Assembly (NCBI GenBank): GCA_036703255.1
Contig: DATNPL010000151.1
Span: forward strand, 1 to 32,000
Source of the DNA: Coleofasciculaceae cyanobacterium
GTDB lineage: Bacteria > Cyanobacteriota > Cyanobacteriia > Elainellales > Elainellaceae
Reading direction: 5' to 3'
DNA: 32,000 bases
Shown here piece after piece: positions 8,064-23,786 of this stretch (its first letter is position 1; each line of letters begins with the position of its first letter). The position numbers and the translations under genes are program-made. The notes beneath the pieces were generated by a model. The model searched no databases and had not been told where the DNA came from. It was given only the letters and a program-made list of their open reading frames with translations.

Positions 8064-10151
8064 ATGTCACGCAATCTTTACATCGCGGCGATCGCCCCCG
8101 ATAGCGGCAAATCTGTGGTTGTGTTGGGGTTGATGGAGCTACTGTCTAAGCGCATTGACAAAGTAGGATTCTTTCGTCCGGTGGTGCAGGCAGGCAGCGC
8201 CCATGATAATGATATTGAGCTAATTCGCAGCCGCTACGCGAGCGAAATTCCCTATGAGATGCAGTATGCCCTCACCCACGAAGAGGCGCGATCGCTGGTG
8301 GCGGAAGGTCGCTACGATGAGCTACTAAAGCGGGTAATTGAAAAATACAAATCGCTAGAGCGGCAATGTGATTTTGTTCTGTGCGAGGGCATTGATGCCT
8401 CTGATCTTGGCTCTGCCTTTGTAGACAACTTTGACACGCGGGTGGCAAACCTCTTGTCTGCCCCGATCTTTATGGTGGTGAATGGGCAAGACAAGCAGCC
8501 CGTCGAAGTGATTGATGCCCTCCGTACCGATCGCGAAACCTTTGTAGAGGCAGGATGTGCGATCGCCGCTACGATTGTCAATCGGGTTTTGCCTGCTCAA
8601 CATCAGGCTGTTTTAGAGTCGGTAGAAAAAATCTGGGTTTGCAAAGACCCGGTATTTGTGTTGCCAGAAGAAACGTTGCTGGCAAAACCCACGATGGCTG
8701 AGATTGCCAACGCCCTCAACGGTCAGCTTTTGTATGGCGAGGGCAGCTTGCTCAATCGGGAAGTTCTGAGCTTTAAGGTGGCTGCTATGCAGGTTGCTAA
8801 CTTTTTAAGCTATCTGGAAGAAGGCGGGCTAATCATTACACCCGGCGATCGCGCGGACGTGATTTTGGGCTGTTTGGCCAGCACGTTTTCCGATAGCTAT
8901 CCCAACATTGCAGGCATTATCCTTACGGGCGGTCTTGCGCTAGCGCCCTCGCTGCAAAAGCTGCTAGAAGGGCTGACCCGATGGACAGTGCCCATCTTTA
9001 GCGTCCAGACTGACACCTACGAAACGGCAACCCAGATCAATCAAGTCCATGCCGAAATTACGCCCGATAACGATCGCAAAATTGCCTCAGCCTTGGGTTT
9101 ATTTGAGTCCCACGTCGATATTGTCCGACTTGAGGAACAAATTTCCGTCTCCCGCTCTGGTCGGATTACGCCGCTGATGTTTGAGTATGACCTGATCGAA
9201 CGGGCGCGGGCAAACAAGCAGCACATCGTTTTGCCAGAAGGACAAGAAGAGCGCATTTTGCGGGCGGCAGAAATTCTGCTGCGGCGAGGCGTTGTTGAGC
9301 TAACGCTGCTGGGCAATGAGACAGAAATCCGAGAACACATTGCGGCGCTAGGGCTAAACCTAGACGGCATTCACATCATCGACCCGATGCAGTCAGAATG
9401 GCATGAAGCCTATGCCCAGACCTATTTTGAGCAGCGTCAGCACAAGGGCATCACGCTAGACTTTGCCCGCGACATGATGCAGGATGTCAGCTATTTTGGC
9501 ACGATGATGGTCTATAAAGGCGCGGCGGATGGCATGGTGTCAGGCGCGCTCCACACGACGGCGCACACGATTCGCCCAGCCCTAGAGTTTATTCGCACGC
9601 AGCCAGGATGCTCGATCGTCTCTAGCGTTTTTCTCATGTGTCTAGACGATCGCGTTTTGGTTTACGGCGATTGTGCCGTCAATCCTAACCCCGATCCTCA
9701 ACAACTGGCCGATATCGCCATTAGCTCAGCGGCGACGGCTGAAATGTTTGGCATCGAGCCGCTGGTGGCTCTGCTGTCTTACTCAACGGGAGAGTCGGGC
9801 AAGGGCGAAGATGTCGATAAGGTGAAGCAGGCAACCCAAATTGCTCGATCGCAGCGTCCTGATCTCAAGGTAGAAGGGCCGATTCAATATGATGCGGCAG
9901 TAGATGAAAGTGTGGCGAAGACCAAGCTGCCCGGTAGCGCTGTGGCAGGTCATGCAACAGTGTTTATCTTCCCCGACTTGAATACAGGAAATAATACCTA
10001 CAAAGCGGTGCAGCGATCGGCCAATGCGGTTGCGATCGGCCCAGTCTTGCAGGGTTTGCGTAAGCCCGTCAATGATTTGAGCCGAGGCTGCACGGTTACA
10101 GATATCGTCAATACGATCGCGATTACCGCAATTCAGGCGCAGGCTGTCTAG
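8064..10151 (+). CDS. pta: Phosphate acetyltransferase, long form (N-terminal P-loop-like/DRTGG region plus PTA_PTB domain)
   Basis: 695 aa. The N-terminus is MSRNLYIAAIAPDSGKSVV.LGL. The C-terminal catalytic domain shows HIVLPEG.EERIL.AA, GADGMVSGA.HTTA, SYSTGESGKG and IFPDLNTGNN.YK, all typical of Pta. Confidence 0.9.
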   Translation: MSRNLYIAAIAPDSGKSVVVLGLMELLSKRIDKVGFFRPVVQAGSAHDNDIELIRSRYASEIPYEMQYALTHEEARSLVAEGRYDELLKRVIEKYKSLERQCDFVLCEGIDASDLGSAFVDNFDTRVANLLSAPIFMVVNGQDKQPVEVIDALRTDRETFVEAGCAIAATIVNRVLPAQHQAVLESVEKIWVCKDPVFVLPEETLLAKPTMAEIANALNGQLLYGEGSLLNREVLSFKVAAMQVANFLSYLEEGGLIITPGDRADVILGCLASTFSDSYPNIAGIILTGGLALAPSLQKLLEGLTRWTVPIFSVQTDTYETATQINQVHAEITPDNDRKIASALGLFESHVDIVRLEEQISVSRSGRITPLMFEYDLIERARANKQHIVLPEGQEERILRAAEILLRRGVVELTLLGNETEIREHIAALGLNLDGIHIIDPMQSEWHEAYAQTYFEQRQHKGITLDFARDMMQDVSYFGTMMVYKGAADGMVSGALHTTAHTIRPALEFIRTQPGCSIVSSVFLMCLDDRVLVYGDCAVNPNPDPQQLADIAISSAATAEMFGIEPLVALLSYSTGESGKGEDVDKVKQATQIARSQRPDLKVEGPIQYDAAVDESVAKTKLPGSAVAGHATVFIFPDLNTGNNTYKAVQRSANAVAIGPVLQGLRKPVNDLSRGCTVTDIVNTIAITAIQAQAV

Positions 10152-10249
10152 GGTATCTTGCGCCCGAGAAGCTGATACTGAACCGGGGGTACAGGGTACT
10201 TTGAGAGAGTTGGTAAATATAGCTCAGCTCATATAGCCGTAATCATTGT

Positions 10250-10295
10250 GAGGACATTTTTGTGGCGCGCTCCGCGCGCCCACAAAAATGTCCTC
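10250..10295. repeat. Long GC-cored palindrome (member 1 of the TTTTGTGGCGCGC family), downstream of pta
   Basis: gaggacatttttgtggcgcgc (10250..10270) / loop tcc / gcgcgcccacaaaaatgtcctc (10274..10295). About 21 bp of pairing with one bulged C. No U-run follows on either strand. Confidence 0.75.
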
Positions 10296-10360
10296 ATCCC
10301 CGCTGTGGATATAGCTATAAATCGTAGCTACGGCTTGCCCTGTAACCTGGAATCTTTCCC

Positions 10361-12001
10361 ATGCTAGATTTTTTGCCAATTCTAGAGCGATCGCTGTTGG
10401 CAACTGGTTTAGCCGCTTCAATCCTCGTGGCTGCGGCGCTCATTGTCACATTGTGCGATCGCCATTTTGCCTCAGAAAAAGCCAGGGCGGCGCTGTCACG
10501 ACGCAGCGAAAAGCGGTTTCAGTCGCTGGTGCAAAACAGCTCAGATGTGATCATGGTGGTCTCGGAGACGGGCATCATCGCCTATGCCAGCCAATCGATT
10601 CAGCGATTGCTGGGTCACGCAGCCGAAACCTGGGTGCATTGCAATATTCTGGCGCTGGTGCATCCTCAAGACCTGGCTCAAGCTCAGGAGCTGCTGGCAA
10701 AAGTATCGCGATCGCCCAAGGCAGGAGCCGTTGTTGAGCTACAGATTCAAGATGGAACAGGGGTGTGGCGCATTCTAGAAGTGATTGCCCACAATTTATT
10801 AGATGAACCAACGGTGGCAGGCATTGTTCTCACCTGTCACGACATTACCCAACGCAAACAGCAAGAGCAAAGTTTGCGGCTGTTGCAATCGGTGGTGATG
10901 CAGGCCAAAGATCCCATCATCATTACCGAGGCCACACCGCTAGATCTGCCAGGGCCTCGCATTCTCTATGTCAATCAAGCCTTTACCAAGATTACAGGCT
11001 ATGAAGCGGAGGAGGCTCTAGGCAAAACTCCCCGAATTTTGCAGGGCGAAAAAACTGATCCTGAAGCCTTGAGTAAAATTCGGACAGCGCTAGAAGCTTG
11101 GCAACCCGTTGTGGTGGAGCTGGTTAACTACTGCAAAGACGGGACTGAGTTTTGGGCTGAGTTGAGCATTGCCCCGGTGGCTAATGAAGTGGGTTGGTTT
11201 ACCCATTGGGTAGCCATTCAGCGCAACATTACCGAGCGCAAGCAGGCCGAAGCCGAGATTCAGAAAGCTTTAGAACAAGAGCGAGAGCTGCGAGAGCTAA
11301 AGTCTCGATTTATTTCTATGGCTTCCCACGAGTTTCGGACACCCCTAGCTACCATCATGGCCTCTAGCGATTTGCTGAAATCTTTTGGGCATAAGCTCAG
11401 CGAAGAGAAGAAGCTAGAGCGCCTCAATAAAATTCAGGCGGAGGTCAACAACATGACTCAACTGCTAGAGGAAGTTTTGCTGATTGGCAAAGCCGAGGCG
11501 GGCAAGATGCAGTTCAATCCGACTCTGCTGAATTTGCCTCAGCTCTGTCAGGATATTTTGGATGAGTTGGGGCTGGCGAGCGATCGCCATAGCCTCACGT
11601 TCGAGCAGGTTGGCAATGAAGCCGAGCCGGATGGTCTCATTTCTGCTGATGAAAAACTGCTGCGCCACATTCTCACCAATTTACTTTCAAACGCAATTAA
11701 GTATTCTCCGCATGGTGGCGAAGTGAGTTTGAAACTACAGTATGAGCCAGCGTCCATTACCTTTCAAATTCAGGATCAGGGCATTGGTATCCCGCTAGCC
11801 GATCAAGGGCATTTGTTTGAGCCGTTTCATCGCGCTAGCAATGCAGGCAGCATTTCTGGTACAGGCTTGGGTCTCGCCATTATTCGATATGCAGCGACTT
11901 TGCATGGTGGCACCATTCAGTTTGACAGCACAGTGGGTTTGGGCAGCAGGTTCACGGTTTCCATTCCCCGAGTAGGTTCTGCCCAATCCACCCTGACTTG
12001 A
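10361..12001 (+). CDS. Membrane-anchored sensor histidine kinase with two PAS domains (the second LOV-like), HisKA and HATPase_c
   Basis: N-terminal hydrophobic segment. PAS with SDVIMVVSETGIIAYASQS. LOV-like NQAFTKITGYEAEEALGKTPRILQGEKTD...NYCKDGTEFW. H-box SHEFRTPLATI. N-box LTNLLSNAIKYS. G-box GTGLGLAI. Confidence 0.9.
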   Translation: MLDFLPILERSLLATGLAASILVAAALIVTLCDRHFASEKARAALSRRSEKRFQSLVQNSSDVIMVVSETGIIAYASQSIQRLLGHAAETWVHCNILALVHPQDLAQAQELLAKVSRSPKAGAVVELQIQDGTGVWRILEVIAHNLLDEPTVAGIVLTCHDITQRKQQEQSLRLLQSVVMQAKDPIIITEATPLDLPGPRILYVNQAFTKITGYEAEEALGKTPRILQGEKTDPEALSKIRTALEAWQPVVVELVNYCKDGTEFWAELSIAPVANEVGWFTHWVAIQRNITERKQAEAEIQKALEQERELRELKSRFISMASHEFRTPLATIMASSDLLKSFGHKLSEEKKLERLNKIQAEVNNMTQLLEEVLLIGKAEAGKMQFNPTLLNLPQLCQDILDELGLASDRHSLTFEQVGNEAEPDGLISADEKLLRHILTNLLSNAIKYSPHGGEVSLKLQYEPASITFQIQDQGIGIPLADQGHLFEPFHRASNAGSISGTGLGLAIIRYAATLHGGTIQFDSTVGLGSRFTVSIPRVGSAQSTLT

Positions 12002-12047
12002 TTTGCCTTGACCCTTCGCCTTCCTTCGACTAGCCATTAAAGACGCA

Positions 12048-13796
12048 ATGACCACTATTCTAATTGTTGAAGATACAGCTTCTTTGCGGGAAGAAATCCT
12101 GCAAATGCTGAATCTAATGAATTTTCAAGGTGTTGGTGCACCGGATGGTGTCACGGCCGTACAGTTAGCCCAGCAGTATCTTCCAGATATCATTCTCTGC
12201 GACATCATGATGCCAGAAATGGATGGATATGCGGTTCTACAAACCCTGCGGCGCAATCCTGAAACGGCACGCATTCCCTTTATATTTCTGACGGCCAAAG
12301 CCGATCGCGCTGATATCCGGCGAGGCATGAACTTGGGAGCCGATGACTATCTCACGAAGCCTTTTACCAGCGATGATTTGGGTGAGGCGATCGCTGCCCG
12401 ACTTTACAAGCATGCCGCCATTACCACGCCCTATGTCTCCGAAATGAAGCGGGCGGCAGAACAGTTGGGGCAGATGGCTTTTCGAGATGGACTCACGGGG
12501 CTACCCAATCGTATTCAGTTTCAGCATCGCCTTCAGGAGGCATTGGTTCAGGCAAAGCTCAGACACAGGGCGATCGGAGTGTTGTGCCTCAATCTAGAGC
12601 GATTTCGAGCGGTCAACGTGCGCTTTGGCCAGTCGGCAGGAGATACGCTATTGCAGGCAGTGGCCGAACGGCTAAAAGCTTGCGTCACGAGCAATGATAC
12701 GGTTGCCCGACTCAGCGGCGATGAGTTTTGCGTCTTGTTGCCCAACCGTGATCTCGATGGCAACTTAGACGGTGACTCTAACGGCGACATTGCTCTGGCG
12801 GCGGAGGAAATTCTCAAAACGCTATCGGCTCCCTACCTGATTCAAGATCAGTCCCTGCGGATTCAAATCAACATGGGTGGCACGATTTATCCCAACGACT
12901 GTAGCCCTGGCGATCGCTTGCTCAACCATGCCGTCATTGCAATGAATTGGGGCAGAGATCAAGGCAATGCTAGCTGTCAGTTTTACAGCGGCGAAATCGC
13001 TCAGGCTACCGCTAATCGCCACATTTTAGAAACCGGACTCCGACGCGCATTGGACAAATCGGAGCTAAAGGTTCACTATCAGCCTCAGGTCAATCTAGTG
13101 ACCGGACGAATTATTGGAGCAGAGGCTTTTTTGCGGTGGCAGAGCGCTGAGCTAGGTTCGGTACCGCCTTTCAGCTTTATTCCGGTGGCAGAAGAGACAG
13201 GTCTGATTGTTCCGATCGGCGCATGGATGATACAAATGGCTTGCTTGCAGGCCAAACTGTGGCAATCGCAATATTTGCTGCCCCTGCGAATGTCGGTCAA
13301 TCTCTCAGCCTATCAGTTTAAGCAGCCCGGCCTGAGGCGATCGATCGCGCAAGTCTTGCAGGAAACAGAGCTAGACGCTGATTTATTAGCGATCGAGCTG
13401 TCTGAAGCCACCATTATGGAAGATGTAGAAGCCAGCCTGATCACGCTGCAACAAATTAAAGAGTTGGGTGTTCATGTCAGCATTGACGACTTTGGCACAG
13501 GCTATTCATCTCTCAACTATCTGACGCAACTGCCGATTGATACTCTCAAAATTGACCGCGCTTTTATCAGCAATATTGCCAGCCCCGATCATGATGGGGC
13601 GATCGCTTCAGCCATTACAGCATTGGCTCGTAGCCTAAATTTGCGTGTGGTGGCCGAGGGCGTTGAGACACAAGAGCAGCTTGCCTTTCTCCGCCGACAG
13701 GGTTGCAATGCGCTGCAAGGTTTTCTGTTTAGTCCGGCAATTTCTGCTGAGGAGTTTGAGAAACTTTTAGCAGAAGATAAGCGATTGTCGCTTTAG
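12048..13796 (+). CDS. Response regulator: REC + GGDEF (SGDEF variant) + EAL (EAF variant)
   Basis: REC: ILIVEDT...DIILCDIMMPEMDGY...TAK. GGDEF domain with RLSGDEFCVLL. EAL domain with GAEAFLRW, DDFGTGYSSLNYL, AEGVET and QGFLFS. It lies 46 nt downstream of the kinase gene. Confidence 0.9.
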   Translation: MTTILIVEDTASLREEILQMLNLMNFQGVGAPDGVTAVQLAQQYLPDIILCDIMMPEMDGYAVLQTLRRNPETARIPFIFLTAKADRADIRRGMNLGADDYLTKPFTSDDLGEAIAARLYKHAAITTPYVSEMKRAAEQLGQMAFRDGLTGLPNRIQFQHRLQEALVQAKLRHRAIGVLCLNLERFRAVNVRFGQSAGDTLLQAVAERLKACVTSNDTVARLSGDEFCVLLPNRDLDGNLDGDSNGDIALAAEEILKTLSAPYLIQDQSLRIQINMGGTIYPNDCSPGDRLLNHAVIAMNWGRDQGNASCQFYSGEIAQATANRHILETGLRRALDKSELKVHYQPQVNLVTGRIIGAEAFLRWQSAELGSVPPFSFIPVAEETGLIVPIGAWMIQMACLQAKLWQSQYLLPLRMSVNLSAYQFKQPGLRRSIAQVLQETELDADLLAIELSEATIMEDVEASLITLQQIKELGVHVSIDDFGTGYSSLNYLTQLPIDTLKIDRAFISNIASPDHDGAIASAITALARSLNLRVVAEGVETQEQLAFLRRQGCNALQGFLFSPAISAEEFEKLLAEDKRLSL

Positions 13797-13846
13797 CTAA
13801 GGATGGCGGTGGCCCCTCACTCGATCGCGTTGGGCATCGATAAAAA

Positions 13847-13878
13847 TTAAGGTTTTGTGGCGTGCCGCAAAACCTTAA
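13847..13878 (-). terminator. Intrinsic terminator for the minus-strand 13930..15891 gene (member 2 of the palindrome family)
   Basis: A 14-bp stem ttaaggttttgtgg / ccgcaaaaccttaa (one G-U) with loop cgtg. In the minus sense it is followed by TTTTTAT (complement of 13840..13846). Confidence 0.55.
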
Positions 13879-13929
13879 AAGCTGGATTTCAAAGTCGAGA
13901 AGACTTTATCGCTACAGACTTTATAGCGA

Positions 13930-15891
13930 CTAAGACAGCCACTCTTCTACAGATGTCTCAGTCGGGTTGGCGTGGCGCTCTAAAGTTTCACGTTTGAATT
14001 TGAGGTGGATCGATCGCGTTTGCTCTCCATCTGCTGCGACTGCCATGACTGGGAGGTCAATTTCGCCATCCTGGAAAGATAGCTGTATGCGAAACGTGCC
14101 ATCAGGATTGAGCTTGATGGGCTGTCCGGCGATCGTCACATTAGCACCCGCTTCAGTAACGCCATGAATAATCAGTTCAGCATCGGCCACCATCCAGAAT
14201 TTACGGGGACGGATAGGAGGCATGGAAGCAGAGAAGCCGACACCCGACATGCCGATGCCAGACATCATACCGATACCGGACATCATGCCAACACCCGACA
14301 TCATCCCAATACCGGACATGCCGATGCCCGACATCATGCCGCCAATACCCACACCCGACATACCGATGCCGGACATCATCCCGATACCGGACATGCCGAT
14401 GCCCGACATCATGCCGCCAATACCCACACCCGACATGCCCACACCCGACAGCATCCCAATGCCCGACATTCCCGCTCCTGATGTCGTATACATGCCGATA
14501 CCCGACATCATGCCGATGCCCGACATTCCCGTTGCGCCCATGCCCGATAGACCTGCACCCGATAGCATTCCGATACCCGACATCCCGATACCGGACATCC
14601 CGATACCAGACATCCCGATACCAGACATCCCGATACCAGACATTCCTGCAAGACTGGCACCCGGCATCATGCCCACGCCCGACATGCCGACGCCCGACAT
14701 TAGACCCATGCCGACGCCAGAGGTCATGCTGAAGCCTGACATGCCGACGCCTGACATTCCCACGCCCGACATTCCCGCAGCACCCACACCTGACATTAGA
14801 CCCATGCCAGACCCCATGCCGATGCCAGAGGTCATGCCGACGCCCGACATTACGCCGACACCCGACATGCCTGCTGCGCCCACGCCCGACATCAGACCCA
14901 TGCCGATGCCAGAAGTCATGCCCATGCCCGACATGCCTGCTGCGCCGACACCTGACATGCCTGTCGCACCCGCTCCAGAAGCCATGCCCATGCCCGAAAC
15001 CTCAGACAAGGCTTGACCCGCACCAGAAGCCCATTGCCCCATGCCCGAAGGGAAAATGTAGGAACTAACAGCCTCTTCGGGGACTTGATGCATTGAACCA
15101 AACACAGATCCTGCCGATCGCTTTGATTCAGCCCCTTTAGCCAAAACAAATGCCGTTTCAGCAACAGGCTCAGCCACGCTAACCGATGTTAACTGTCGAG
15201 CAGGATGCACCAGTTTTAGGAAGGTTTTGCTGCGTAGGTCTTCATCCCAATCGATCGTAATGAATTGGTCATCAATCCAATCAGTAGGATAGACGGGCGG
15301 AATTCTTACGGATGCCGATCGCGCTAGTACCAGCCAACGACCTTCTAAAGTCAAATAGCCAATCTCAATCATGTAGTCGCGATCGCTAACGGGCACTGGC
15401 AAATACCACTCTCTAGCCAGCTCGTCACATTCATACTGCTGCAAGCTGTGGGGGCGCTGAACTTCTAGATTCACGTTAGTGATGTCATAAAATCGCAGCG
15501 CTAGCCGCACACCGCCCTGGCGACGCAGAACCTCTTTACTGGCATTGGAAACATCCCAATAGGCGTATGCCCACTGGGGATCACGAGGCATGAGCACAAT
15601 GCAGCTCTCCCCATAGCCACTGGGCAACTCTGGCAAAACTTCATCCACGGTGGCCAAAGCGACGCTAACGCGAGCGGGTTGCCCAACATCAAACTTTGCA
15701 GCCTCAACTTCTGCCTGGGCTTCTACGACACGGGCTGAGCCAGGAGCAGCCTGTAGCCGCTGAATTTCTTGAATAGCATTGAAGAGCTGGTCTTTACGCA
15801 TTCGGCTATAGCGGGAGATATTCAGCTCACTGGCAATTCGGCGGAGTTGTCGGAGGGTCATTTCCTCCAGGGGTGGACGTTGCGCTGACAT
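13930..15891 (-). CDS. Rho_N (SAP-like) domain + DUF4912-like domain protein with a ~270-aa Gly/Met/Ser low-complexity tract
   Basis: N-terminus: LRQLRRIASELNISRYSRMRKDQLFNAIQE (Rho termination factor N-terminal motif). CIVLMPRDPQWAYAYWDV... resembles DUF4912 (from memory). aa ~283..556 are (M)SG(I/V)GM repeats. The structured C-terminus is FWMVADAELIIHG... Confidence 0.8.
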   Translation of the reverse strand: MSAQRPPLEEMTLRQLRRIASELNISRYSRMRKDQLFNAIQEIQRLQAAPGSARVVEAQAEVEAAKFDVGQPARVSVALATVDEVLPELPSGYGESCIVLMPRDPQWAYAYWDVSNASKEVLRRQGGVRLALRFYDITNVNLEVQRPHSLQQYECDELAREWYLPVPVSDRDYMIEIGYLTLEGRWLVLARSASVRIPPVYPTDWIDDQFITIDWDEDLRSKTFLKLVHPARQLTSVSVAEPVAETAFVLAKGAESKRSAGSVFGSMHQVPEEAVSSYIFPSGMGQWASGAGQALSEVSGMGMASGAGATGMSGVGAAGMSGMGMTSGIGMGLMSGVGAAGMSGVGVMSGVGMTSGIGMGSGMGLMSGVGAAGMSGVGMSGVGMSGFSMTSGVGMGLMSGVGMSGVGMMPGASLAGMSGIGMSGIGMSGIGMSGIGMSGIGMLSGAGLSGMGATGMSGIGMMSGIGMYTTSGAGMSGIGMLSGVGMSGVGIGGMMSGIGMSGIGMMSGIGMSGVGIGGMMSGIGMSGIGMMSGVGMMSGIGMMSGIGMSGVGFSASMPPIRPRKFWMVADAELIIHGVTEAGANVTIAGQPIKLNPDGTFRIQLSFQDGEIDLPVMAVAADGEQTRSIHLKFKRETLERHANPTETSVEEWLS

Positions 15892-16441
15892 AAAAGATAC
15901 CTCCAGTTGTTCAAAAGTTATTCAAATATTGATTCAGAGTTAATAGCAAGCTTAAACAGTGGCGCGATCGCAGCAGCGACCGCCTCAATCCTCAAAAACT
16001 GCCCTAAATGAGCCTTTTGTGATGGCATGTCCCATAAGTAAAAATCACAGAGCTTGAGTTTTAGGAAGCAGCATCAGCTGAAACGTCATATGGCAAAAGA
16101 GTTAAACAGCACAGATTTAGACAATTCCATCGATTTTCTTTGGGATCGTGGGGATCAGATCTGTACCTTACATAGTGCAGAAAATACTCTCAGGAAGCAA
16201 GAGGCTGAGCTGCCTGATTCTAGAGCGTTTTATGGAATTGCAGGAAAAACGGGGATCGTAATGTCACGAAATCCTGACATTATAAATTTCGCCAACCTAC
16301 TGGTAAAACGATGTTCTGTTAGGTTTTCATGACATTTAAAAAAAGCGATTCTGCCTGAGCTATGATGGCTAATGGTGAGTATATTTACTCATTTGTTATT
16401 TCGCCGATTCAGTAAGCGTTAGAGGCTGCTTTGGGTAGGTT

Positions 16442-17176
16442 ATGCCGAGTCGATTAATCAGCAAGGTTTTGTCTCCTGCCATTCGGCTGTGGCTCAGATC
16501 TCAGGTAGAGTCGATCGCTCATCTGGCCTTTCAGATTGCAGGGAGCGATCGCCAGATTTTGACGGGATGTATTCCAGGAGTTGAGGTTACGGCTCAACAG
16601 GCCGTCTACCGGGGCATCCACATTGCCCAGGTCGCTCTGACAGCGGGAGAAATTCGGATTAATCTCAGTCAAGTTTTACAGGGAAAGCCTTTGAGGTTAT
16701 TGGCTGCGATTCCCATTGAGGCGGAAGTTCAGCTTTCTCAAGCGGATCTGAATGCTTCTCTAAAGTCTCCCTTGCTGGGTCAAGCTTTGCAGGAAACGCT
16801 GTTTCCCCTGCTGCGGTCTAGCCTGCTTGATCCCCATATGGAGCCGTGGGGCGATCGCCTCACCGATTTCCACTCGCCACAGTTGGTTTTGCAGGGCGAT
16901 CGCCTGATTGTCACCCTTCAGCTAATTGTTGCAGACCAAATTATCCCGTTTACGCTGCGGACAGGGCTAGCGGTAATCGAAGGTTCTCGTCTACGGTTCG
17001 ATCGCCCAGAATCGCTGCCCTCTCCCAACGCAGAGCAAGGCACACCCCTAGAGGCGTTTGAGCAGTATGAGGCTAATTTGGGAACAGAGGTAAATCTGCG
17101 TCAGTTGCGCGTGGAAAATGGACATCTCTTCTGCCAAGGGCGGCTCAACGTTATTCCAGAACCTATCCAGTCTTGA
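16442..17176 (+). CDS. DUF2993 (LmeA-like) family protein
   Basis: 244-aa ORF. The pattern ...QILTGCIPGVEVTAQQAVYRGIHIAQVALTAGEIRINLSQVLQGKPLRLL...DLNASLKSPLL matches my recollection of cyanobacterial DUF2993 proteins. The family call is from memory only. Confidence 0.6.
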   Translation: MPSRLISKVLSPAIRLWLRSQVESIAHLAFQIAGSDRQILTGCIPGVEVTAQQAVYRGIHIAQVALTAGEIRINLSQVLQGKPLRLLAAIPIEAEVQLSQADLNASLKSPLLGQALQETLFPLLRSSLLDPHMEPWGDRLTDFHSPQLVLQGDRLIVTLQLIVADQIIPFTLRTGLAVIEGSRLRFDRPESLPSPNAEQGTPLEAFEQYEANLGTEVNLRQLRVENGHLFCQGRLNVIPEPIQS

Positions 17177-17222
17177 ACGCCTAGCTGATAAACGCCTAAT
17201 TCGTAAACTCCTGCCCTATATC

Positions 17223-17624
17223 CTATTGAGCTGAGCTGTTTTCAAGCCGCAGCTTGGCTTCTTGCTCAAACCAAGCTAGCACTTGTGGCACGGTCAAGGT
17301 TTCGATCGCCCCATTCTCTCTGAGCGCAACCTGCTTGAGCGGTTTGAGTGATGAGATCACAAGCTGCGTAAAGAAACCCTTAAAGCCTTCATCAAAGGCT
17401 GGGTTGGTCTGAAAAATTGGATCAGCTGCAACCCAGTCAGCAATTTGCTGCGGACTCAGATCGGCGATCGCCATTTCATATTTTTGGGCAATTAGCTTGA
17501 GCGATCGGAGAGAGTACAACGCGACTCGGGCAGAAAATTTTTCTCGAGAGGTGAGTAAGGCTTTATCGACTTCAGCCACCTCCTCAAAGGTTAAAAACTC
17601 TGGCGGTGAAGGTTGATCAAACAT
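17223..17624 (-). CDS. Conserved hypothetical protein (133 aa)
   Basis: Clean ORF with an ATG start and typical codon usage. No family recognised. Confidence 0.6.
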   Translation of the reverse strand: MFDQPSPPEFLTFEEVAEVDKALLTSREKFSARVALYSLRSLKLIAQKYEMAIADLSPQQIADWVAADPIFQTNPAFDEGFKGFFTQLVISSLKPLKQVALRENGAIETLTVPQVLAWFEQEAKLRLENSSAQ

Positions 17625-18475: not shown

Positions 18476-19153
18476 TCACGCAACCCTTACCAAATAACCG
18501 CACTGGTGTTCGCCGCCTACCATCCAGTGGGTTCGTTCTACCTTGCAGCCTTCCAGCGCCAGTTCAAACATTTCTAGCTCATGTCCACAGACGCTAGGAA
18601 ACGATTCGGCGATTTGAGAAATGGCGCAATTGTATTCTGTAATCACATAGTGGGGAGCCGCCATCTCTTGAGCGTCAATTCCTGCTGCATCAAGCTTCTC
18701 AGCATCGACCAAATGCCATTCTGCCATGTAGCCTTCGGCACGACGAATTTCAACCAAAGCCGCGACTCGATCTTGTAAAGAGCCGCTGCCTAGGCGATCG
18801 CGATACTCTAAGGCTTTTTGCTCCCACTGCTTCCGCAAAATATCGCTGAACTGTTTTTTATCGACGGTTGCCGCTAGCGTCGTCAGCAAGGAAACAGCAA
18901 ATTCGTCATAGCGATCGGGGAACTGGTGATGTCCGATCTGGCTCAGCTTATAGATATAGTTGGGACGACCCATGCCCACCTGAATGGTCTCATGATGAAT
19001 TAACCCTTCATCTTCCAAATCTTTGAGATGCCGCCGCGTGGCTTGAGCGCTAATTTCTAGCTGATGGGCAAGATCTTGTGCAGTGGCGTGACCTTGCTTT
19101 AGCAGGTGATTGAGAATGTGTTGCTTGGTGGAAGGTTGCTGCGTAGCGGTCAT
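18476..19153 (-). CDS. sufR: Fe-S cluster biogenesis transcriptional repressor SufR
   Basis: The N-terminal winged-helix region is ILNHLLKQGHATAQDLAHQLEISAQATRRHLKDLEDEGLI. The C-terminal Cys cluster is C-AISQIAESFPSVCGHE...C...C. The gene is divergent from the suf operon, as in other cyanobacteria. Confidence 0.85.
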   Translation of the reverse strand: MTATQQPSTKQHILNHLLKQGHATAQDLAHQLEISAQATRRHLKDLEDEGLIHHETIQVGMGRPNYIYKLSQIGHHQFPDRYDEFAVSLLTTLAATVDKKQFSDILRKQWEQKALEYRDRLGSGSLQDRVAALVEIRRAEGYMAEWHLVDAEKLDAAGIDAQEMAAPHYVITEYNCAISQIAESFPSVCGHELEMFELALEGCKVERTHWMVGGEHQCGYLVRVA

Positions 19154-19321
19154 GGCTGTTTTAGCTTCCAGTGTCTTAGCGTCCAGACTGTTTTGAGCTT
19201 TTGGGTGTTCTATCTTTCAGATTTTAGCTTTTAGATTTCAGGGGGCTACAGAAAGTTTTGGCGATCGTCTCAGAGCGTCCAGGCAAAATAGTAGACTAAA
19301 AAAGCTGGTTTTTGACTTTAA

Positions 19322-19335
19322 CAACTTTTTTGTTG
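19322..19335. promoter_or_regulatory. Candidate SufR operator 1 (CAAC-N6-GTTG)
   Basis: caacttttttgttg is a perfect inverted repeat of the form reported for cyanobacterial SufR sites. It lies in the sufR / ftrC divergent intergenic region. Confidence 0.55.
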
Positions 19336-19361
19336 CTAAAGTGCTTTAGAATGTACTTACG

Positions 19362-19375
19362 CAACAGCCAGGTTG
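19362..19375. promoter_or_regulatory. Candidate SufR operator 2 (CAAC-N6-GTTG)
   Basis: caacagccaggttg is a second perfect CAAC-N6-GTTG, 40 bp from the first. A TAGAAT -10-like hexamer (19347..19352) lies between them. Confidence 0.55.
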
Positions 19376-19431
19376 TTTTAATTATAAAGCTATTGGTCAC
19401 CCTCTCGCTCTATTGAGATGAACTCCTTGAG

Positions 19432-19794
19432 ATGAACACAACCTCACAAACCACCCAAGCATCAGATAAAAATTTAGAGCTAATGCGCAGCTTTTCCGAA
19501 AGCTATGCCAAGCGAACAGATACTTACTTTTGTGTCGATCCAAGCGTCACGGCCGTTGTGATCGAAGGTTTGGCAAAGCATAAGGATGATTTGGGCGCTC
19601 CCCTTTGCCCCTGTCGGCACTATGAAGATAAGGTCGCAGAAGCCGCTGCTGCCTACTGGAATTGTCCTTGTGTGCCCATGCGTGAGCGCAAAGAGTGTCA
19701 CTGTATGCTGTTTCTCACCCCCGACAATGATTTTGCGGGTGAGCAGCAAGAAATTGGCTTTGACGAAATCCGGGCGACGACCAACCACTGCTGA
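19432..19794 (+). CDS. ftrC: Ferredoxin-thioredoxin reductase catalytic subunit
   Basis: CPCRHYEDK...WNCPCVPMRERKECHCMLF is the CPC / CPC / CHC cysteine pattern of the FTR catalytic chain. The ~120-aa length fits. Confidence 0.9.
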   Translation: MNTTSQTTQASDKNLELMRSFSESYAKRTDTYFCVDPSVTAVVIEGLAKHKDDLGAPLCPCRHYEDKVAEAAAAYWNCPCVPMRERKECHCMLFLTPDNDFAGEQQEIGFDEIRATTNHC

Positions 19795-19969
19795 TTTTAT
19801 GTAGGGCGGACGTCTGTCCGCCTGAAGCAGCACTCTCATAGGTCTGCAATGAGCCGGAAGTTTGCCTCTCTGGATTTGAGAGGTCAAGATTTGAGGAGTC
19901 AGGTTTAAGAATTCAAGTTTAATCTTCTTTTGTTAGCGATCGAGAGAACACAGCCACCCCCCAGCCACT

Positions 19970-21406
19970 ATGACGACAACGGTTACCTCTTTAGTCAACC
20001 AACCTTATAAGTACGGCTTCGTCACTGATATTGAATCAGATGTGATTCCGGCAGGCTTAAGCGAAGATGTGGTTCGCCTGATCTCGTCGAAGAAAAACGA
20101 GCCTGAGTTTATGCTGGAGTTTCGCCTCAAAGCCTATCGTCAATGGCTAAAAATGGCAGAACCCAACTGGGCAGAAGTGGGCTATCCCGCGATCGACTAT
20201 CAAAAAATTATCTACTACTCGGCTCCTAAGCAAAAAGAAAAGCTCGGCAGTCTAGATGAGGTTGATCCAACCTTGCTAGATGCTTTCGAGAAACTAGGCA
20301 TTTCGCTTTCAGAGCAAAAGCGGCTGTCTAACGTAGCAGTGGACGCCATTTTTGACAGCGTTTCAGTGGCTACCACCTTTAGAGAAAAGCTGGCAAAGGA
20401 TGGCGTGATTTTCTGCTCCATTACGGAAGCGATGCGCGAGTATCCTGAACTGATTCAGAAATATTTGGGCAGCGTCGTTCCAGTGGGCGATAACTTTTTT
20501 GCCGCGCTCAACTCGGCGGTGTTTAGCGATGGCTCTTTCGTCTATATTCCTAAGGGCACGAAATGTCCGATGGAGCTATCGACCTACTTCCGGATTAACA
20601 ACGGCGACTCAGGACAGTTTGAGCGGACGCTGATTGTGGCCGAAGAAGGCAGCTCCGTGAGCTACCTCGAAGGCTGTACTGCTCCTATGTTTGACACCAA
20701 TCAGCTACATGCGGCTGTGGTGGAACTGGTGGCGCTCGACAATGCCGAGATCAAATACTCCACGGTTCAGAACTGGTACGCCGGAGACAAAGAGGGCAAA
20801 GGCGGTATCTATAACTTTGTCACCAAGCGTGGACTCTGCCAGGGTGCAAACTCTAAGATCTCCTGGACGCAGGTGGAAACGGGTTCGGCCATTACCTGGA
20901 AGTATCCAAGCTGTGTATTGGTGGGCGATAATTCGATCGGTGAGTTTTACTCGGTAGCGCTAACCAACAACCGCCAGCAGGCCGACACAGGCACCAAAAT
21001 GGTTCACATTGGTAAGAATACGCGCAGTACGATCATTTCTAAAGGCATCTCAGCAGGCCAGTCTGAAAACAGCTATCGGGGTCTGGTGAAGATTTCACCT
21101 AAGGCAGACGGCGCACGCAACTATTCACAATGCGACTCGATGCTCATTGGCGATCAAGCTGGGGCAAACACCTTCCCCTATATCCAGGTGCAAAACAACA
21201 CGGCTAAAGTGGAGCATGAAGCTTCGACCTCCAAAATTGGGGAAGACCAGTTGTTTTACTTTGCTCAGCGGGGCGTTTCGGCAGAAGACGCGATCTCAAT
21301 GATCATCAGCGGTTTCTGCAAAGATGTGTTCAACCAACTGCCTATGGAGTTTGCGGTAGAAGCCGATCGCCTCCTCAGTCTCAAGCTTGAAGGCAGCGTG
21401 GGCTAA
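19970..21406 (+). CDS. sufB: Fe-S cluster assembly protein SufB
   Basis: 478 aa. N-terminus [30 protein letters not shown] and the C-terminal GFC...LPMEFAVEA...L are typical of SufB. Confidence 0.95.
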
Positions 21407-21472
21407 TTTCTCGGTCGGGTGGGCATTGCCTACCCTGCTGTCCAATGGAATATCTTTACTAAAGCATTAATT

Positions 21473-21537
21473 GTAGGATGGGTTGGCGATCGCACAGCCC
21501 ATGCAGATTTTAGGTTTTGCGCCTCAACCTAACCTAC
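21473..21537. repeat. Short dispersed hairpin repeat (GTAGGTTGGGTTGAG family) in the sufB-sufC spacer
   Basis: gtaggatgggttgg (21473..21486) faces cctcaacctaacctac (21522..21537; reverse complement gtaggttaggttgagg). The architecture and core match the 26322/26409 element. Confidence 0.5.
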
Positions 21538-21613
21538 CTAGGGTTTCTATTTAATGAGTCCCAGCGACTGCAATGATGAGATGTAAGTGATGAGAGTTGT
21601 TAAAGGCTAGAGC

Positions 21614-22402
21614 ATGATTATTGATAACAGCAGCACCGTTTTATCCGTCAAGAATCTAACGGCTAGCGTAGGCGAAACGCCGATTCTCAAAGGCATGAAC
21701 CTGGAGGTTAAGGCAGGGGAAATTCATGCCATTATGGGGCCGAATGGCTCTGGGAAAAGCACTTTTTCTAAAGTCTTGGCGGGTCATCCGGCCTATGAAG
21801 TCACGGGCGGAGAAATTCAGTTTCAGGAGCAAAACCTGCTAGAGCTAGAGCCGGAAGCAAGGGCGCGATCGGGAATTTTTCTAGCCTTCCAGTATCCTCT
21901 AGAGATTCCTGGAGTTAGCAACCTAGACTTTTTGCGTGTCGCCTACAACTCCAAGCGCAAGCATTTGGGTGAAGAAGAGCTGGATGCTTTTGATTTTGAT
22001 GAGTTGGTGCAGCAAAGGCTAGATGTGGTGAAAATGGATGCCAGCTTCCTCAGCCGCAGCGTTAACGAGGGCTTTTCGGGCGGCGAAAAGAAGCGCAATG
22101 AAATCTTGCAAATGGCGCTATTAGAGCCAAAGCTGGCTATTCTAGACGAGACAGATTCAGGGCTGGATATTGATGCCCTGCGAATTGTGGCAGGCGGCGT
22201 CAACCAGCTTTCGACCGCTGAGAATGCGATCGTTGTGATCACCCACTATCAGCGATTGCTAGACTACATCATTCCTGACTACATTCACGTTATGGCTAAC
22301 GGGCGCATCATTCGCACGGGCGGCAAAGAGCTGGCTTTGGCGCTAGAAGAACGCGGCTATGACTGGGTGCTAGAAGAAGCGGCATCAGGAGCAGCATCAT
22401 GA
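21614..22402 (+). CDS. sufC: Fe-S cluster assembly ATPase SufC
   Basis: Walker [10 protein letters not shown], signature [13 protein letters not shown], Walker [13 protein letters not shown]. The stop overlaps the sufD start (ATGA). Confidence 0.95.
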
Positions 22403-23745
22403 GTACTCAGGTTTTCCCCTCAGAAGTGACGCTGACCGCCTCAGACAAACGGGCGGCCTACCTCGCCAATTTGCTGGCGCTGGCGCAGCGATCGCCCCTC
22501 TCTGGAATCGATCGCCCTTGGCTGAATGAGCTACGCGATCACGCTGCCCTACGGGTGCAGGAGCAGACCTTCCCGACGCAGCGCGACGAAGAATGGCGAT
22601 TTACCGACCTGTCGGCTCTGCTGCAAACTCCGCTAGAAGCCGTTAAAACTCAGAAGATCGGAACGTCTGCTATCGCTCCTTTTGGGTTACCAGAAGCGGA
22701 TCGGCTCGTGTTTGTGGATGGCGTTTATGCCCCGGAGTTATCCAACCTTACCCATCTGCCTGAAAGTCTGATTGTCGGCAACCTCTCTGCTCTGGCTGAG
22801 CAGCATGGCGATCGCCTACAGCCCTACCTGGGTCAGCAGTCTGGAGCCGATGAGGTGTTTACGGCTCTAAACACGGCAGGACTGACGGATGCAGCCATCC
22901 TATGGGTGCCCAAAGGTGTAGCGATCGATGTTCCGATTCACCTGCTGTTTCTCTCAACCGCCAGCCATGCAGCCCTGATTCAGCCGCGCGTTTTGGTGGT
23001 GGCAGAAACCAATAGCGCCGTGACGCTGATTGAAGATTATGGGGCGATCGGTTCAGGCTCTTACCTCACCAATGCCGTGACTGAGATCTGGATTGCCGAT
23101 AACGCTGAGGTCAACCATACCCGCGTTCAGCGCGATGGACATCACGCCTTTCACATTGGCAAAACAGCCGTCTCTCAAGCCCGCACCTCACGCTATACCT
23201 GCAATGCCGTGAGTTTGGGCGCAAAGCTTTCTCGACATCATCTGGAAATCTACCAGACCGGAGCGCAGACGGAGACTACGCTCAATGGCCTGACTCTGCT
23301 CCATGGCGAGCAGATAGGAGACACCCACAGCACGATCGCCCTGACCCAGCCCCACGGCACGACGCGCCAACTGCACAAATGCATCATTGACGATAAAGGT
23401 CATGCGATTTTCAACGGCAAGGTCTTTGTACCGCGCGCCGCACAAATGACCGATGCCGGACAGCTCAACCGCAATCTTCTGCTGTCATCCAAAGCCCGTG
23501 TAGATACCAAGCCGCAGCTCGAAATTGTTGCCGATAACGTTAAATGCACCCACGGAGCCACCGTCGGACAGCTCGAAGCCGATGAGGTCTTTTATCTGCA
23601 AAGCCGGGGAATTGACGCTGCCGATGCGCGTCAGCTCTTGGTTTATGCCTTTGCCTACGAAGTGATTGAGAAAATTGCGATCGCTTCTCTCCGTCGCACG
23701 CTCTCCGAACTCGTGCAATGCCGCAGCATGGCAGTGCGAAACTAG
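22399..23745 (+). CDS. sufD: Fe-S cluster assembly protein SufD
   Basis: 448 aa between sufC and sufS. The C-terminal SufB/D beta-helix region shows [28 protein letters not shown]. Confidence 0.9.
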
Positions 23746-23786
23746 TCCCCTATTTGCCTTCGCTATCCCTCACCTCCTCACCCTCC

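What the first reader, a model, noticed from the sequence alone, without database searches (positions are those of the whole stretch)
14224..15040. A ~270-residue Gly/Met/Ser pentapeptide-like tract (about 55 methionines) inside a Rho_N/DUF4912-type protein
Between a structured N-terminal half (Rho_N-like helix-hairpin plus a DUF4912-like domain) and a ~95-aa structured C-terminus, the protein consists almost entirely of (M)SG(I/V)GM-type repeats. By hand count there are ~55 Met in ~273 aa, about one residue in five, with the rest mostly Gly and Ser and almost no charged residues.

The DNA is a mosaic of short near-repeats (catgccgat / catcccgat ...). These also generate the artefactual PDMP-repeat ORF on the opposite strand.

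Met-dense low-complexity regions are rare. Known roles of such regions elsewhere include Cu(I)/Ag(I) binding by Met-rich motifs and redox-switchable self-assembly of Met-rich low-complexity domains. Combined with a nucleic-acid-binding Rho_N module in a phylum that lacks Rho, this looks like a candidate redox- or metal-responsive condensate or scaffold protein. I know of no characterised bacterial example.
Basis: partly seen in the sequence, partly recalled or inferred. Interest (0 to 1): 0.6.

Follow-up and report, generated by a model that had tools for sequence, protein, structure and literature searches.

The report
Expanded Gly-Met-Ser motif array, cyanobacterial protein
A protein of unknown function found across cyanobacteria normally carries three or four copies of a short Ser-Gly-x-Gly-Met motif, and in this genome the motif has multiplied to about 40 copies, giving a real, floppy, uncharged, methionine-rich stretch that selection preserves but whose role is untested.

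Summary
Residues 284-556 of the 653-aa ORF at 13930..15891 (-) contain 54 Met, 96 Gly, 46 Ser and one charged residue. It is the most Met-dense ORF in the genome.

The tract is not an isolated oddity. It is a roughly 40-copy expansion of the motif [M/T]-S-G-[V/I/A]-G-[M/L/F]. Members of the cyanobacterial Rho_N-DUF4912-Ig-like family carry 2-4 copies in 17 of 30 sampled family genomes and a comparably short core in 79 other species.

- **Length:** tracts run from 24 to 452 aa and differ by 51 aa between two species of this genus.
- **Constraint:** the motif is kept under purifying selection (dN/dS 0.10).
- **Structure:** AlphaFold2 predicts no structure for the tract.
- **Met is replaceable:** Leu/Thr take its place in some lineages. 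Mets-type Cu motifs, export signals and Msr linkage are absent.
- **Paralogue:** a membrane-anchored, PstS-fused paralogue carries an independently expanded tract of similar length.

My best reading is a disordered, multivalent "sticker-spacer" tether. The metal and redox ideas are weakly supported.

The scan had already flagged this family in other genomes. The tool that finds sequencing runs was closed, so tract length is not verified by reads.

The parts
13930..15891 (-). Whole gene, 653 aa plus stop: Rho_N - DUF4912 - helical linker - SGxGM tract - Ig-like C-terminal domain
   Evidence: More than 3300 homologues, all of the named ones cyanobacterial 'DUF4912 domain-containing protein'. Orthologue present in 31 of 31 related genomes.
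15772..15870 (-). Rho_N (helix-extended-helix) domain, residues 8-40. It is the only Rho_N domain in the genome.
   Evidence: Pfam 3e-11, above cutoff. AF2 pLDDT 92-96. PDB profile hit to the Rho N-terminus, E 0.0011. Single genomic match.
15268..15615 (-). DUF4912 domain, residues 93-208, predicted FN3-like beta-sandwich
   Evidence: Pfam 1.1e-41. AF2 pLDDT 87-96. Foldseek best hits are FN3 domains, TM (target) up to 0.72, E about 5e-4.
15043..15267 (-). Conserved linker, residues 209-283, with one predicted helix (243-260). It ends in the family-wide 'SSY(V/I)FPSG(V/M)GxW' entry motif.
   Evidence: alignment A2 conserved columns; AF2
14224..15042 (-). The tract, residues 284-556: about 40 SGxG motifs (28 of them SGxGM) in units of 5, 6 or 8 residues. 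It is uncharged and predicted disordered.
   Evidence: AF2 pLDDT 29-39 with no secondary structure. dN/dS 0.10 against the congener.
13933..14223 (-). C-terminal Ig-like beta-sandwich domain, residues 557-653, entered through the conserved 'MSGVGFSASMPPIRPRKFW' junction
   Evidence: sub-threshold Pfam Glucodextran_B (25.7 bits, cutoff 27) and Big_6. AF2 pLDDT 75-86, all-beta. Near-invariant columns.
14222..15016 (+). Shadow ORF (PDMP repeats) on the opposite strand; not a gene
   Evidence: It spans only the low-complexity tract. The minus-strand frame is the one joined in frame to conserved domains on both sides and conserved in homologues.
13847..13878 (-). Hairpin followed by a U-run, about 50 nt after the stop codon: probable intrinsic terminator between the convergent genes
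   Evidence: RNA fold -15 kcal/mol, z = -3.4; sequence read
16442..17176 (+). Divergently transcribed LmeA-like (DUF2993) gene, a recurrent neighbour of this family
   Evidence: Pfam LmeA 7e-32. Same pairing in L. ohadii and in 29 of 112 homologous loci.

Best explanation
The tract is a lineage-specific, in-frame amplification of a short linear motif, [M/T]-S-G-[V/I/A/M]-G-[M/L/F]. It has grown to about 40 copies here. The short forms of the cyanobacterial Rho_N - DUF4912 (FN3-like) - Ig-like protein family carry two to four copies, between the linker and the C-terminal domain.

Shown:
- The motif is conserved family-wide.
- Copy number changes fast through whole-unit indels.
- The sequence is under purifying selection.
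- The segment is uncharged, flexible through Gly/Ser, studded with hydrophobic Met/Ile/Val, and predicted disordered.
- Only this protein and one paralogue in the genome carry the motif array.

Inferred mechanism:
- The array acts as a multivalent 'sticker-spacer' tether.
- The N-terminal module fixes the protein to a site. In this protein that is the Rho_N helix-hairpin, probably on nucleic acid. In the paralogue it is a transmembrane helix with a periplasmic PstS-like domain.
- The motif copies make weak, additive hydrophobic contacts with each other, with the paralogue's array, or with an unknown partner.
- Copy number would therefore set reach and avidity, possibly up to forming a cohesive phase.
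- Met is the preferred, flexible hydrophobic sticker but is not chemically indispensable.
For: - Motif conservation: 2174 SGxG motifs in 121 homologues give position -1 M 62%, position 3 V/A/I 88%, position 5 M 59% / L 20% / F 5%.
- Default short state: 79 GTDB species representatives carry only the core 'PSGVGMWAVPTxSGLTMSGVGMSGVGFSAS'.
- Length range 24-452 aa.
- A same-genus species has flanking domains 98-99% identical but a tract 51 aa longer with many unit indels.
- Selection: dN/dS 0.10 in a gapless 112-codon tract block at pS 0.36, against 0.02 and 0.06 in the folded domains. Seventeen SGIGM units occur in 10 synonymous DNA versions.
- Disorder: AF2 pLDDT 29-39 with no secondary structure, while all three domains are confident.
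- Physical chemistry: fraction of charged residues 0.004, normalised hydropathy 0.595, no TM-grade window.
- Exclusivity: only two ORFs in the genome have at least 2 motifs (31 and 29).
- Paralogue: SP-PstS-TM-3xDUF4912-tract-Ig. Its tract is independently built, sharing no DNA word above 23 nt and using different unit flavours, yet it is the same length by my borders (271 vs 271 aa).
- Co-expansion: across 30 genomes of the family, 17 are short/short, 13 long/long and 0 discordant.
- The flanking FN3-like and Ig-like folds are generic interaction modules.
Against: - No experimental data exist for any family member. The literature lists it only as an uncharacterised 'Rho-like' DUF4912 protein (PMC13613805).
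- No binding partner is known, and gene context gives no operon.
- Low AF2 confidence is not proof of disorder.
- The co-expansion of the two paralogues rests on only 2-3 independent events on the tree, so it is not statistically established.
- Most cyanobacteria manage with 3-4 motifs, so the extra copies may add little.
- Nucleic-acid binding by the Rho_N module is assumed, not shown.
Confidence: 0.5

Rival explanations
1. Neutral runaway linker. Only the ancestral 3-4 motifs matter. The extra roughly 36 copies arose by replication slippage or unequal recombination in a tolerant linker, and they persist by drift.
For: The default state in most lineages is short. Length differs by 51 aa between congeners and by 168-324 aa within the genus. 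The DNA is made of 15-, 18- and 75-bp near-repeats prone to slippage. Expansions recur with different unit flavours in many lineages.
Against: dN/dS of 0.10 at pS 0.36 shows the added copies are held under purifying selection. Old copies have diverged synonymously yet keep the peptide. Charged and bulky residues stay excluded over 273 aa. The paralogue expanded in the same lineages without DNA exchange.
Confidence: 0.25
2. Methionine redox device. The Met-dense tract acts in one of two ways. It could be an oxidation-reversible self-assembly switch, like the yeast Pbp1/ataxin-2 or TDP-43 low-complexity domains. Or it could be a sacrificial oxidant sink recycled by Msr enzymes, like MrpX, in an oxygenic phototroph.
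For: 54 Met in 273 aa, the highest density in the genome. The genome has three msrA genes. Characterised precedents exist (PMC4436054; PMC10576115 for TDP-43). An earlier scan note reported a divergent msrA neighbour in one other genome (e1-2585512).
Against: Met content of the tract ranges from 3% to 27% among homologues, with Leu/Thr versions in Roseofilum-type and other lineages. msrA is near the gene in only 1 of 112 loci and not in this window. MrpX-type proteins are exported, and this protein has no signal peptide.
Confidence: 0.15
3. Cu(I)/Ag(I)-binding Met-rich region.
For: High Met content. Thioether-rich regions bind Cu(I) in CueO, PcoC/CopC, CusF and Ctr1 (established knowledge).
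Against: The dominant Met-Met spacing is 5; MxM/MxxM account for 6 of 53 spacings. There is no His, Asp or Cys in the tract. The protein is cytoplasmic by sequence, whereas Mets motifs are typical of oxidising compartments (my knowledge). No copper-handling gene is in the neighbourhood. Met is replaceable in homologues.
Confidence: 0.05
4. Folded repeat: a pentapeptide-repeat beta-helix or a Gly-rich PPII bundle rather than a disordered region.
For: Fourteen of the units are exactly 5 residues long. (V/I)-G-M-S-G can be written on the A(D/N)LXX register (inference). GroEL GGM tails sample PPII (PMC12571646).
Against: No Pentapeptide Pfam hit even at E <= 1. Unit lengths are irregular (5, 6, 8, 9, 10, 14). 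AF2 gives pLDDT 29-39 and no strands. Frequent indels between close relatives would break a solenoid register.
Confidence: 0.03
5. Assembly artefact: the tract length or sequence is mis-assembled.
For: Repetitive DNA. Reads could not be consulted.
Against: The frame stays open and joins two conserved domains. The longest exact repeat is 53 bp. The tract lies inside a 112.8-kb contig. A congener's independent assembly is colinear over the first 112 tract residues. Hundreds of homologues from independent assemblies have such tracts.
Confidence: 0.02

Closest known systems
Cyanobacterial 'Rho-like' DUF4912 proteins (PF07498 + PF16258), e.g. those annotated 'DUF4912 domain-containing protein'; possibly all2705 of Nostoc PCC 7120
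   Same: Same family and architecture. Membership was tested by Pfam scores and by full-length homology at 46-65% identity. PMC13613805 describes the family as conserved across cyanobacteria, lacking the RNA-binding and ATPase domains of Rho, with function unknown.
   Different: Typical members have 3-4 motifs (about 410 aa). This one has about 40 (653 aa). The motif array itself is not described in the papers found. The identity of all2705 with this family is inferred only from its annotation and its position near ZipN-like genes (PMC8147232).
GroEL C-terminal (GGM)4M tail
   Same: A bacterial, cytoplasmic, uncharged Gly/Met repeat that is disordered or PPII-sampling. It is thought to offer a flexible, mildly hydrophobic surface (PMC11978752, PMC12571646).
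   Different: It is 13 residues at a C-terminus with triplet periodicity, inside a chaperonin cavity. Here the segment is 273 internal residues with a Ser-containing penta/hexapeptide motif, in an unrelated protein.
Abductin and elastin-like (VPGVG / XGGZG) elastomeric repeats
   Same: Gly-rich short repeats with Met or aliphatic residues, no charge, and entropic-spring or self-coacervating behaviour. The comparison of abductin with Gly/Met tails is made in PMC12571646.
   Different: These are extracellular animal structural proteins, cross-linked, and abductin is rich in Phe. No homology. The repeat details are from my own knowledge and were not tested here.
FG-nucleoporin cohesive domains and bacterial multivalent IDR scaffolds such as CsoS2
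   Same: Many copies of a short hydrophobic motif separated by flexible polar spacers, acting by multivalent weak binding (CsoS2: PMC11365436).
   Different: The stickers there are aromatic (FG) or [IV][TS]G with charged spacers, and the partners are known. Here the partner is unknown and the spacers are nearly absent.
Met-rich redox or metal systems: yeast Pbp1/TDP-43 LCDs, MrpX/BcrX, Mets motifs of CueO/PcoC/Ctr1
   Same: Unusually high Met density in a low-complexity segment.
   Different: No export signal, no MxM/MxxM pattern, no Msr or Cu gene linkage, and Met is not conserved across orthologues.

Membership tests
Pfam DUF4912 (PF16258) | HMM score above the gathering cutoff | tested here: met
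   142.3 bits against 29.4, residues 93-208; same match from the genome search
Pfam Rho_N (PF07498) | HMM score above the gathering cutoff | tested here: met
   43.5 bits against 24.9, residues 8-40; PDB profile hit to the Rho N-terminus of 3l0o_A, E 0.0011
Transcription termination factor Rho | OB-fold Rho_RNA_bind domain and RecA-type hexameric ATPase | tested here: not met
   No such Pfam hits in the protein at E <= 1. No Rho_RNA_bind anywhere in the 97%-complete genome.
Pentapeptide repeat proteins (PF00805) | Tandem A(D/N)LXX units in strict 5-residue register forming a right-handed beta-helix | tested here: not met
   No Pfam hit at E <= 1. Unit lengths of 5, 6, 8, 9, 10 and 14. AF2 shows no strands, pLDDT 29-39.
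Mets-motif Cu(I)/Ag(I) binding regions | Clustered MxM / MxxM (often with His) in an exported or periplasmic protein | tested here: not met
   6 of 53 Met-Met spacings are 2 or 3; 23 are 5. No His in the tract. No signal peptide in the N-terminus.
Mets-motif Cu(I)/Ag(I) binding regions | Measured Cu(I)/Ag(I) affinity | not testable with these tools
   Needs purified protein.
Met-rich redox-switch LCD (Pbp1 / TDP-43 type) | Met residues conserved as the functional element across orthologues | tested here: not met
   Tract Met content ranges from 3% to 27%. Leu/Thr versions occur (P0032/33, P0051/53/58).
Met-rich redox-switch LCD (Pbp1 / TDP-43 type) | Self-assembly that is melted by Met oxidation and restored by Msr | not testable with these tools
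   Biochemical assay required.
MrpX-type sacrificial Met-rich scavenger | Export to the periplasm and genetic linkage with a methionine sulfoxide reductase | tested here: not met
   No signal peptide. msrA lies within the fetched flanks in 1 of 112 loci. The neighbours here are GGDEF-EAL and LmeA-like genes.
Multivalent short-linear-motif array in an intrinsically disordered region | Predicted disorder together with a conserved repeated motif under purifying selection | tested here: met
   pLDDT 29-39; motif logo from 2174 copies; dN/dS 0.10
Multivalent short-linear-motif array in an intrinsically disordered region | A defined binding partner or self-association of the motif | not testable with these tools
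   No multimer prediction or interaction data available.

The most novel reading that the evidence does not exclude
The nucleoid-anchored Rho_N form and the membrane-anchored PstS-TM form are two ends of one system. Their independently built but co-expanding SGxGM arrays would co-assemble into a charge-free Gly/Met cohesive phase. That phase would couple periplasmic phosphate sensing or the cell membrane to the nucleoid. Array length would set the span or avidity, and Met oxidation would tune cohesion in an oxygen-producing cell.
Probability: 0.08. Interest if true: 0.85.

Novelty: new variant of a known kind. Interest (0 to 1): 0.5.

Why it matters
The host protein belongs to one of the few families found across cyanobacteria with no known function. 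It carries the only Rho_N domain in a Rho-less genome.

Showing that its hallmark is a conserved, amplifiable SGxG(M/L) motif gives a concrete handle for experiments. The motif copy number can be varied, Met can be swapped for Leu using natural precedents, and partners can be sought by pull-down with motif peptides.

If the array drives multivalent assembly, it would be a bacterial, aliphatic/thioether counterpart of FG-type cohesive domains. Nature would already have supplied a length series from 3 to about 70 motifs. The parallel expansion in a membrane-bound phosphate-binding paralogue hints at a two-component structural system that nobody has described.

Tried and rejected
- **Gene context:** clustering neighbours in 79 loci showed no conserved operon. 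The recurrent neighbours (a secreted 310-aa protein, a 188-aa protein, a ZipN/Ftn2-like gene, PDH E1-alpha) look like clade synteny.
- **ccmP adjacency** seen in Spirulina major: unique to that locus. CipG of the PNAS 2026 carboxysome paper is a pentapeptide-repeat protein, not this family.
- **Solved structures:** only the Rho N-terminus matches, and DUF4912 has no PDB relative by sequence. Foldseek gives only a generic FN3-like fold.
- **NCBIfam:** no family.
- **Rfam** on 13000-17500: nothing.
- **Promoter scan:** no more sites than in shuffled sequence.
- **PF25533 'Lysostaphin_N'** labels on homologues: sub-threshold hits on the repeat tract, which is low-complexity noise.
- **Statistical test of paralogue co-expansion:** only 1-2 independent pairs, so it cannot reach significance.
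- **First AF2 run** with 38 close homologues gave a poor C-terminal domain. It was redone with 78 sequences.
Full report
**1. The observation**

The ORF at 13930..15891 on the minus strand encodes 653 residues. Pfam places a Rho_N domain at residues 8-40 and DUF4912 at 93-208, both well above their cutoffs. A weak Ig-like match (Glucodextran_B / Big_6) lies at 568-628.

Residues 284-556 (window 14224-15042) are 273 aa. They contain 96 Gly, 54 Met, 46 Ser, 19 Ile, 18 Ala, 17 Val and a single charged residue.

Tandem Repeats Finder shows a mosaic of imperfect arrays with periods of 15-96 bp. The opposite-strand 264-aa 'PDMP' ORF covers only the tract, so it is a shadow frame.

Among 4671 ORFs of at least 150 aa in the 7.1-Mb genome, this one has the highest Met density. 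It reaches 24 Met in 100 residues, against a genome median of 4.

The tract is unlikely to be an assembly artefact:
- It stays in frame between two conserved domains.
- Its longest exact internal DNA repeat is 53 bp.
- The 17 SGIGM units are spelled in 10 different ways.
- An independent assembly of a congener is colinear over the first 112 tract residues.

**2. What the tract is**

A database search gave more than 3300 homologues. All of the named ones are cyanobacterial 'DUF4912 domain-containing proteins', 405-1142 aa long. At least 581 stretches in GTDB species representatives encode relatives. The orthologue is present in 31 of 31 related genomes spanning 13 families.

Reading the sequences shows that the tract is a family hallmark whose length varies widely. 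In 79 species representatives (Nostocales, Oscillatoriales, Chroococcales and others), the segment between the linker and the C-terminal domain is only about 45 residues. It reads 'SSYVFPSGVGMWAVPTxSGLTMSGVGMSGVGFSASxPxRPRKFW', which is three or four copies of one motif.

In other lineages the same motif is amplified. Tracts run from 24 to 452 aa, the longest in Spirulina major. A logo built from 2174 motif copies in 121 proteins reads [M 62%, T, A, E]-S-G-[V 56%, A, I, M]-G-[M 59%, L 20%, F 5%].

The repeat 'flavour' differs between lineages. Examples are MYTESGVG, AARTESGVGM, LETMSGVGMMSG, MVGGMSGVG, ERMSGVGM, LTTSGVG and LTASGIG. Expansions therefore appear to have arisen repeatedly and independently.

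Met is not obligatory. In P0032/P0033 (SGIGLTA) Met makes up about 3% of the tract, and the Roseofilum-type proteins (SGVGLTT units) are likewise Leu/Thr-rich. Elsewhere Met reaches up to 27%, and it is 19.8% here.

**3. Evolutionary behaviour**

Within the window's genus the tract is 168, 180, 273 and about 324 aa. A congener (G005) has N- and C-terminal domains 98-99% identical to the window's protein. Its tract is 51 aa longer and differs by many whole-unit indels.

In the 112-codon block that aligns without gaps, pS is 0.36 and pN 0.048, giving dN/dS 0.10. The folded domains give 0.02 and 0.06. The tract therefore changes length freely, but its sequence is constrained at the protein level.

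**4. Structure and physical chemistry**

I ran AlphaFold2 on the full protein with a 78-sequence alignment.

| Region | pLDDT |
|---|---|
| Rho_N | 92-96 |
| DUF4912 | 87-96 |
| C-terminal beta domain | 75-86 |
| Residues 272-555 (tract) | 29-39, no secondary structure |

Foldseek places DUF4912 among FN3-type beta-sandwiches, with TM up to 0.72 on the target and E about 5e-4. No sequence relative of DUF4912 has a solved structure.

For the tract, the fraction of charged residues is 0.004 and the normalised hydropathy is 0.595. Sequence entropy is 2.71 bits, and no window reaches transmembrane-grade hydrophobicity. An uncharged chain flexible through Gly/Ser and carrying one hydrophobic residue in three is expected to be cohesive rather than expanded. 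That is inference from polymer-physics rules for disordered proteins, not something shown here.

**5. The paralogue**

The genome has four DUF4912 proteins. One of them, on contig C102, has this architecture: signal peptide, PstS-like phosphate-binding domain, transmembrane helix, three DUF4912 domains, an SGxG(M/L) tract and the same Ig-like C-terminus.

The positive residues after the helix place the DUF4912-tract-Ig part in the cytoplasm (inference). So the same module exists with two anchors: a Rho_N helix-hairpin or a membrane helix.

Only these two ORFs in the genome have two or more motif copies (31 and 29). The two tracts share no DNA word longer than 23 nt and only 18 heptapeptides, so gene conversion is not homogenising them. 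By my borders they are nevertheless both 271 aa.

Both forms are present in 37 of the 39 other genomes of the family. In the 30 genomes where I could measure both, 17 are short/short (2-4 motifs) and 13 are expanded/expanded. None is discordant, and Spearman's rho is 0.84.

On a tree built from the flanking domains, this reduces to two or three independent events. No test can reach significance on that basis. It is a lead, not a result.

**6.

Copper:
- The dominant Met-Met spacing is 5. MxM and MxxM account for only 6 of 53 spacings.
- The tract has no His, Cys or Asp.
- The protein has no export signal.
- The neighbours are pta, a PAS histidine kinase, a response-regulator GGDEF-EAL protein, an LmeA-like protein, a cupin, and sufR-sufBCDS.

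Redox:
- msrA lies near the gene in 1 of 112 homologous loci.
- The pairing reported by an earlier scan note is therefore not general.
- Met replaceability argues against Met chemistry as the conserved function, although it could still matter in Met-rich lineages such as this one.

Nucleic-acid binding by Rho_N is plausible but untested. The genome has no Rho_RNA_bind domain, and this is its only Rho_N domain. That agrees with reports that cyanobacteria lack Rho (PMC12642595) and possess this 'Rho-like' DUF4912 protein of unknown function (PMC13613805).

Characterised bacterial Gly/Met or Met-rich precedents do exist. They include GroEL (GGM)4M tails (PMC11978752, PMC12571646) and MrpX (PMC4436054). 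Neither is a member-level match.

**7. Most likely mechanism**

Shown: the tract is a conserved, amplifiable motif array that is disordered by prediction, uncharged, and under purifying selection. It sits between generic interaction folds and is attached to alternative anchors.

Inferred: it works as a multivalent sticker-spacer tether. Copy number would tune reach and avidity for self-association, for the paralogue's array, or for an unknown partner. I put this at about 0.5.

The main rival, at about 0.25, is that the extra copies are tolerated slippage products. Met-redox is about 0.15, copper about 0.05, and a folded solenoid or an assembly artefact are each a few percent.

**8. Novelty**

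The family is known and annotated, but I found no functional characterisation. The only mentions I found are PMC13613805 and a proteomics table listing all2705 as 'Rho termination factor' (PMC8147232). The link of all2705 to this family is my inference.

I did not find the motif array, its expansion series, or the co-expanding membrane paralogue described anywhere. The scan had already flagged this family, and Gly/Met tracts in other proteins, in other genomes.

I class the finding as a new variant of a known kind: a low-complexity multivalent region in a conserved scaffold-like protein. It is of moderate interest.

Noticed in passing
own genome, contig C102:115735-119824 (+), outside the window: Paralogue of 1363 codons (open frame): signal peptide, PstS-like phosphate-binding domain, TM helix, three DUF4912 domains, a 271-aa SGxG(M/L) tract rich in Tyr/Leu units, and the same Ig-like C-terminus. 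Two further PstS-TM-2xDUF4912 proteins without a tract lie on C151 and C152.
   Followed up: partly
30 genomes of the window's family (loci L092-L182): Tract expansion in the Rho_N form and in the PstS form always go together (17 short/short, 13 long/long, 0 discordant), although the two tracts share no long DNA words. Only 2-3 independent events, so this is unproven.
   Followed up: partly
window 16442-17176 (+): A divergently transcribed LmeA-like (DUF2993) gene neighbours this family in 29 of 112 loci, including several different families. The two genes share a 550-bp intergenic region with no Rfam match.
   Followed up: partly
window 13847-13878: Palindromic hairpin (-15 kcal/mol, z -3.4) with a U-run between the convergent GGDEF-EAL and DUF4912 genes.
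   Followed up: partly
window 16279-16307 (-): The only good sigma-70-like site upstream of the gene (TTTACC-17-TATAAT) lies about 390 nt before the ATG, which would imply a long 5' leader. The number of such sites is no higher than in shuffled sequence.
   Followed up: no
window 8064-13796 and 18476-25037: Flanking genes: pta (DRTGG-PTA), a PAS histidine kinase, a response-regulator GGDEF-EAL protein, and on the other side a cupin, a SufR-like regulator and sufB-sufC-sufD-sufS. No evident link to the finding.
   Followed up: no
own genome, C236 (+, offset 67448, 278 aa) and C148 (+, offset 33694, 207 aa): Two other ORFs reach 15 Met per 100 residues, the next highest after this family and its shadow ORF. 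I did not examine them.
   Followed up: no
protein P0057 (metaclust record, 506 aa): This homologue contains an internal duplication joined by 'SYTHLDVYKRQ'. I recall this peptide as the translation of a sequencing-adapter sequence, so the record is probably a chimeric artefact.
   Followed up: no
homologues P0002, P0020, P0040: Precomputed 'PF25533 Lysostaphin_N' labels fall on the repeat tract at 26-38 bits against a cutoff of 60. This is low-complexity noise, not a domain.
   Followed up: yes
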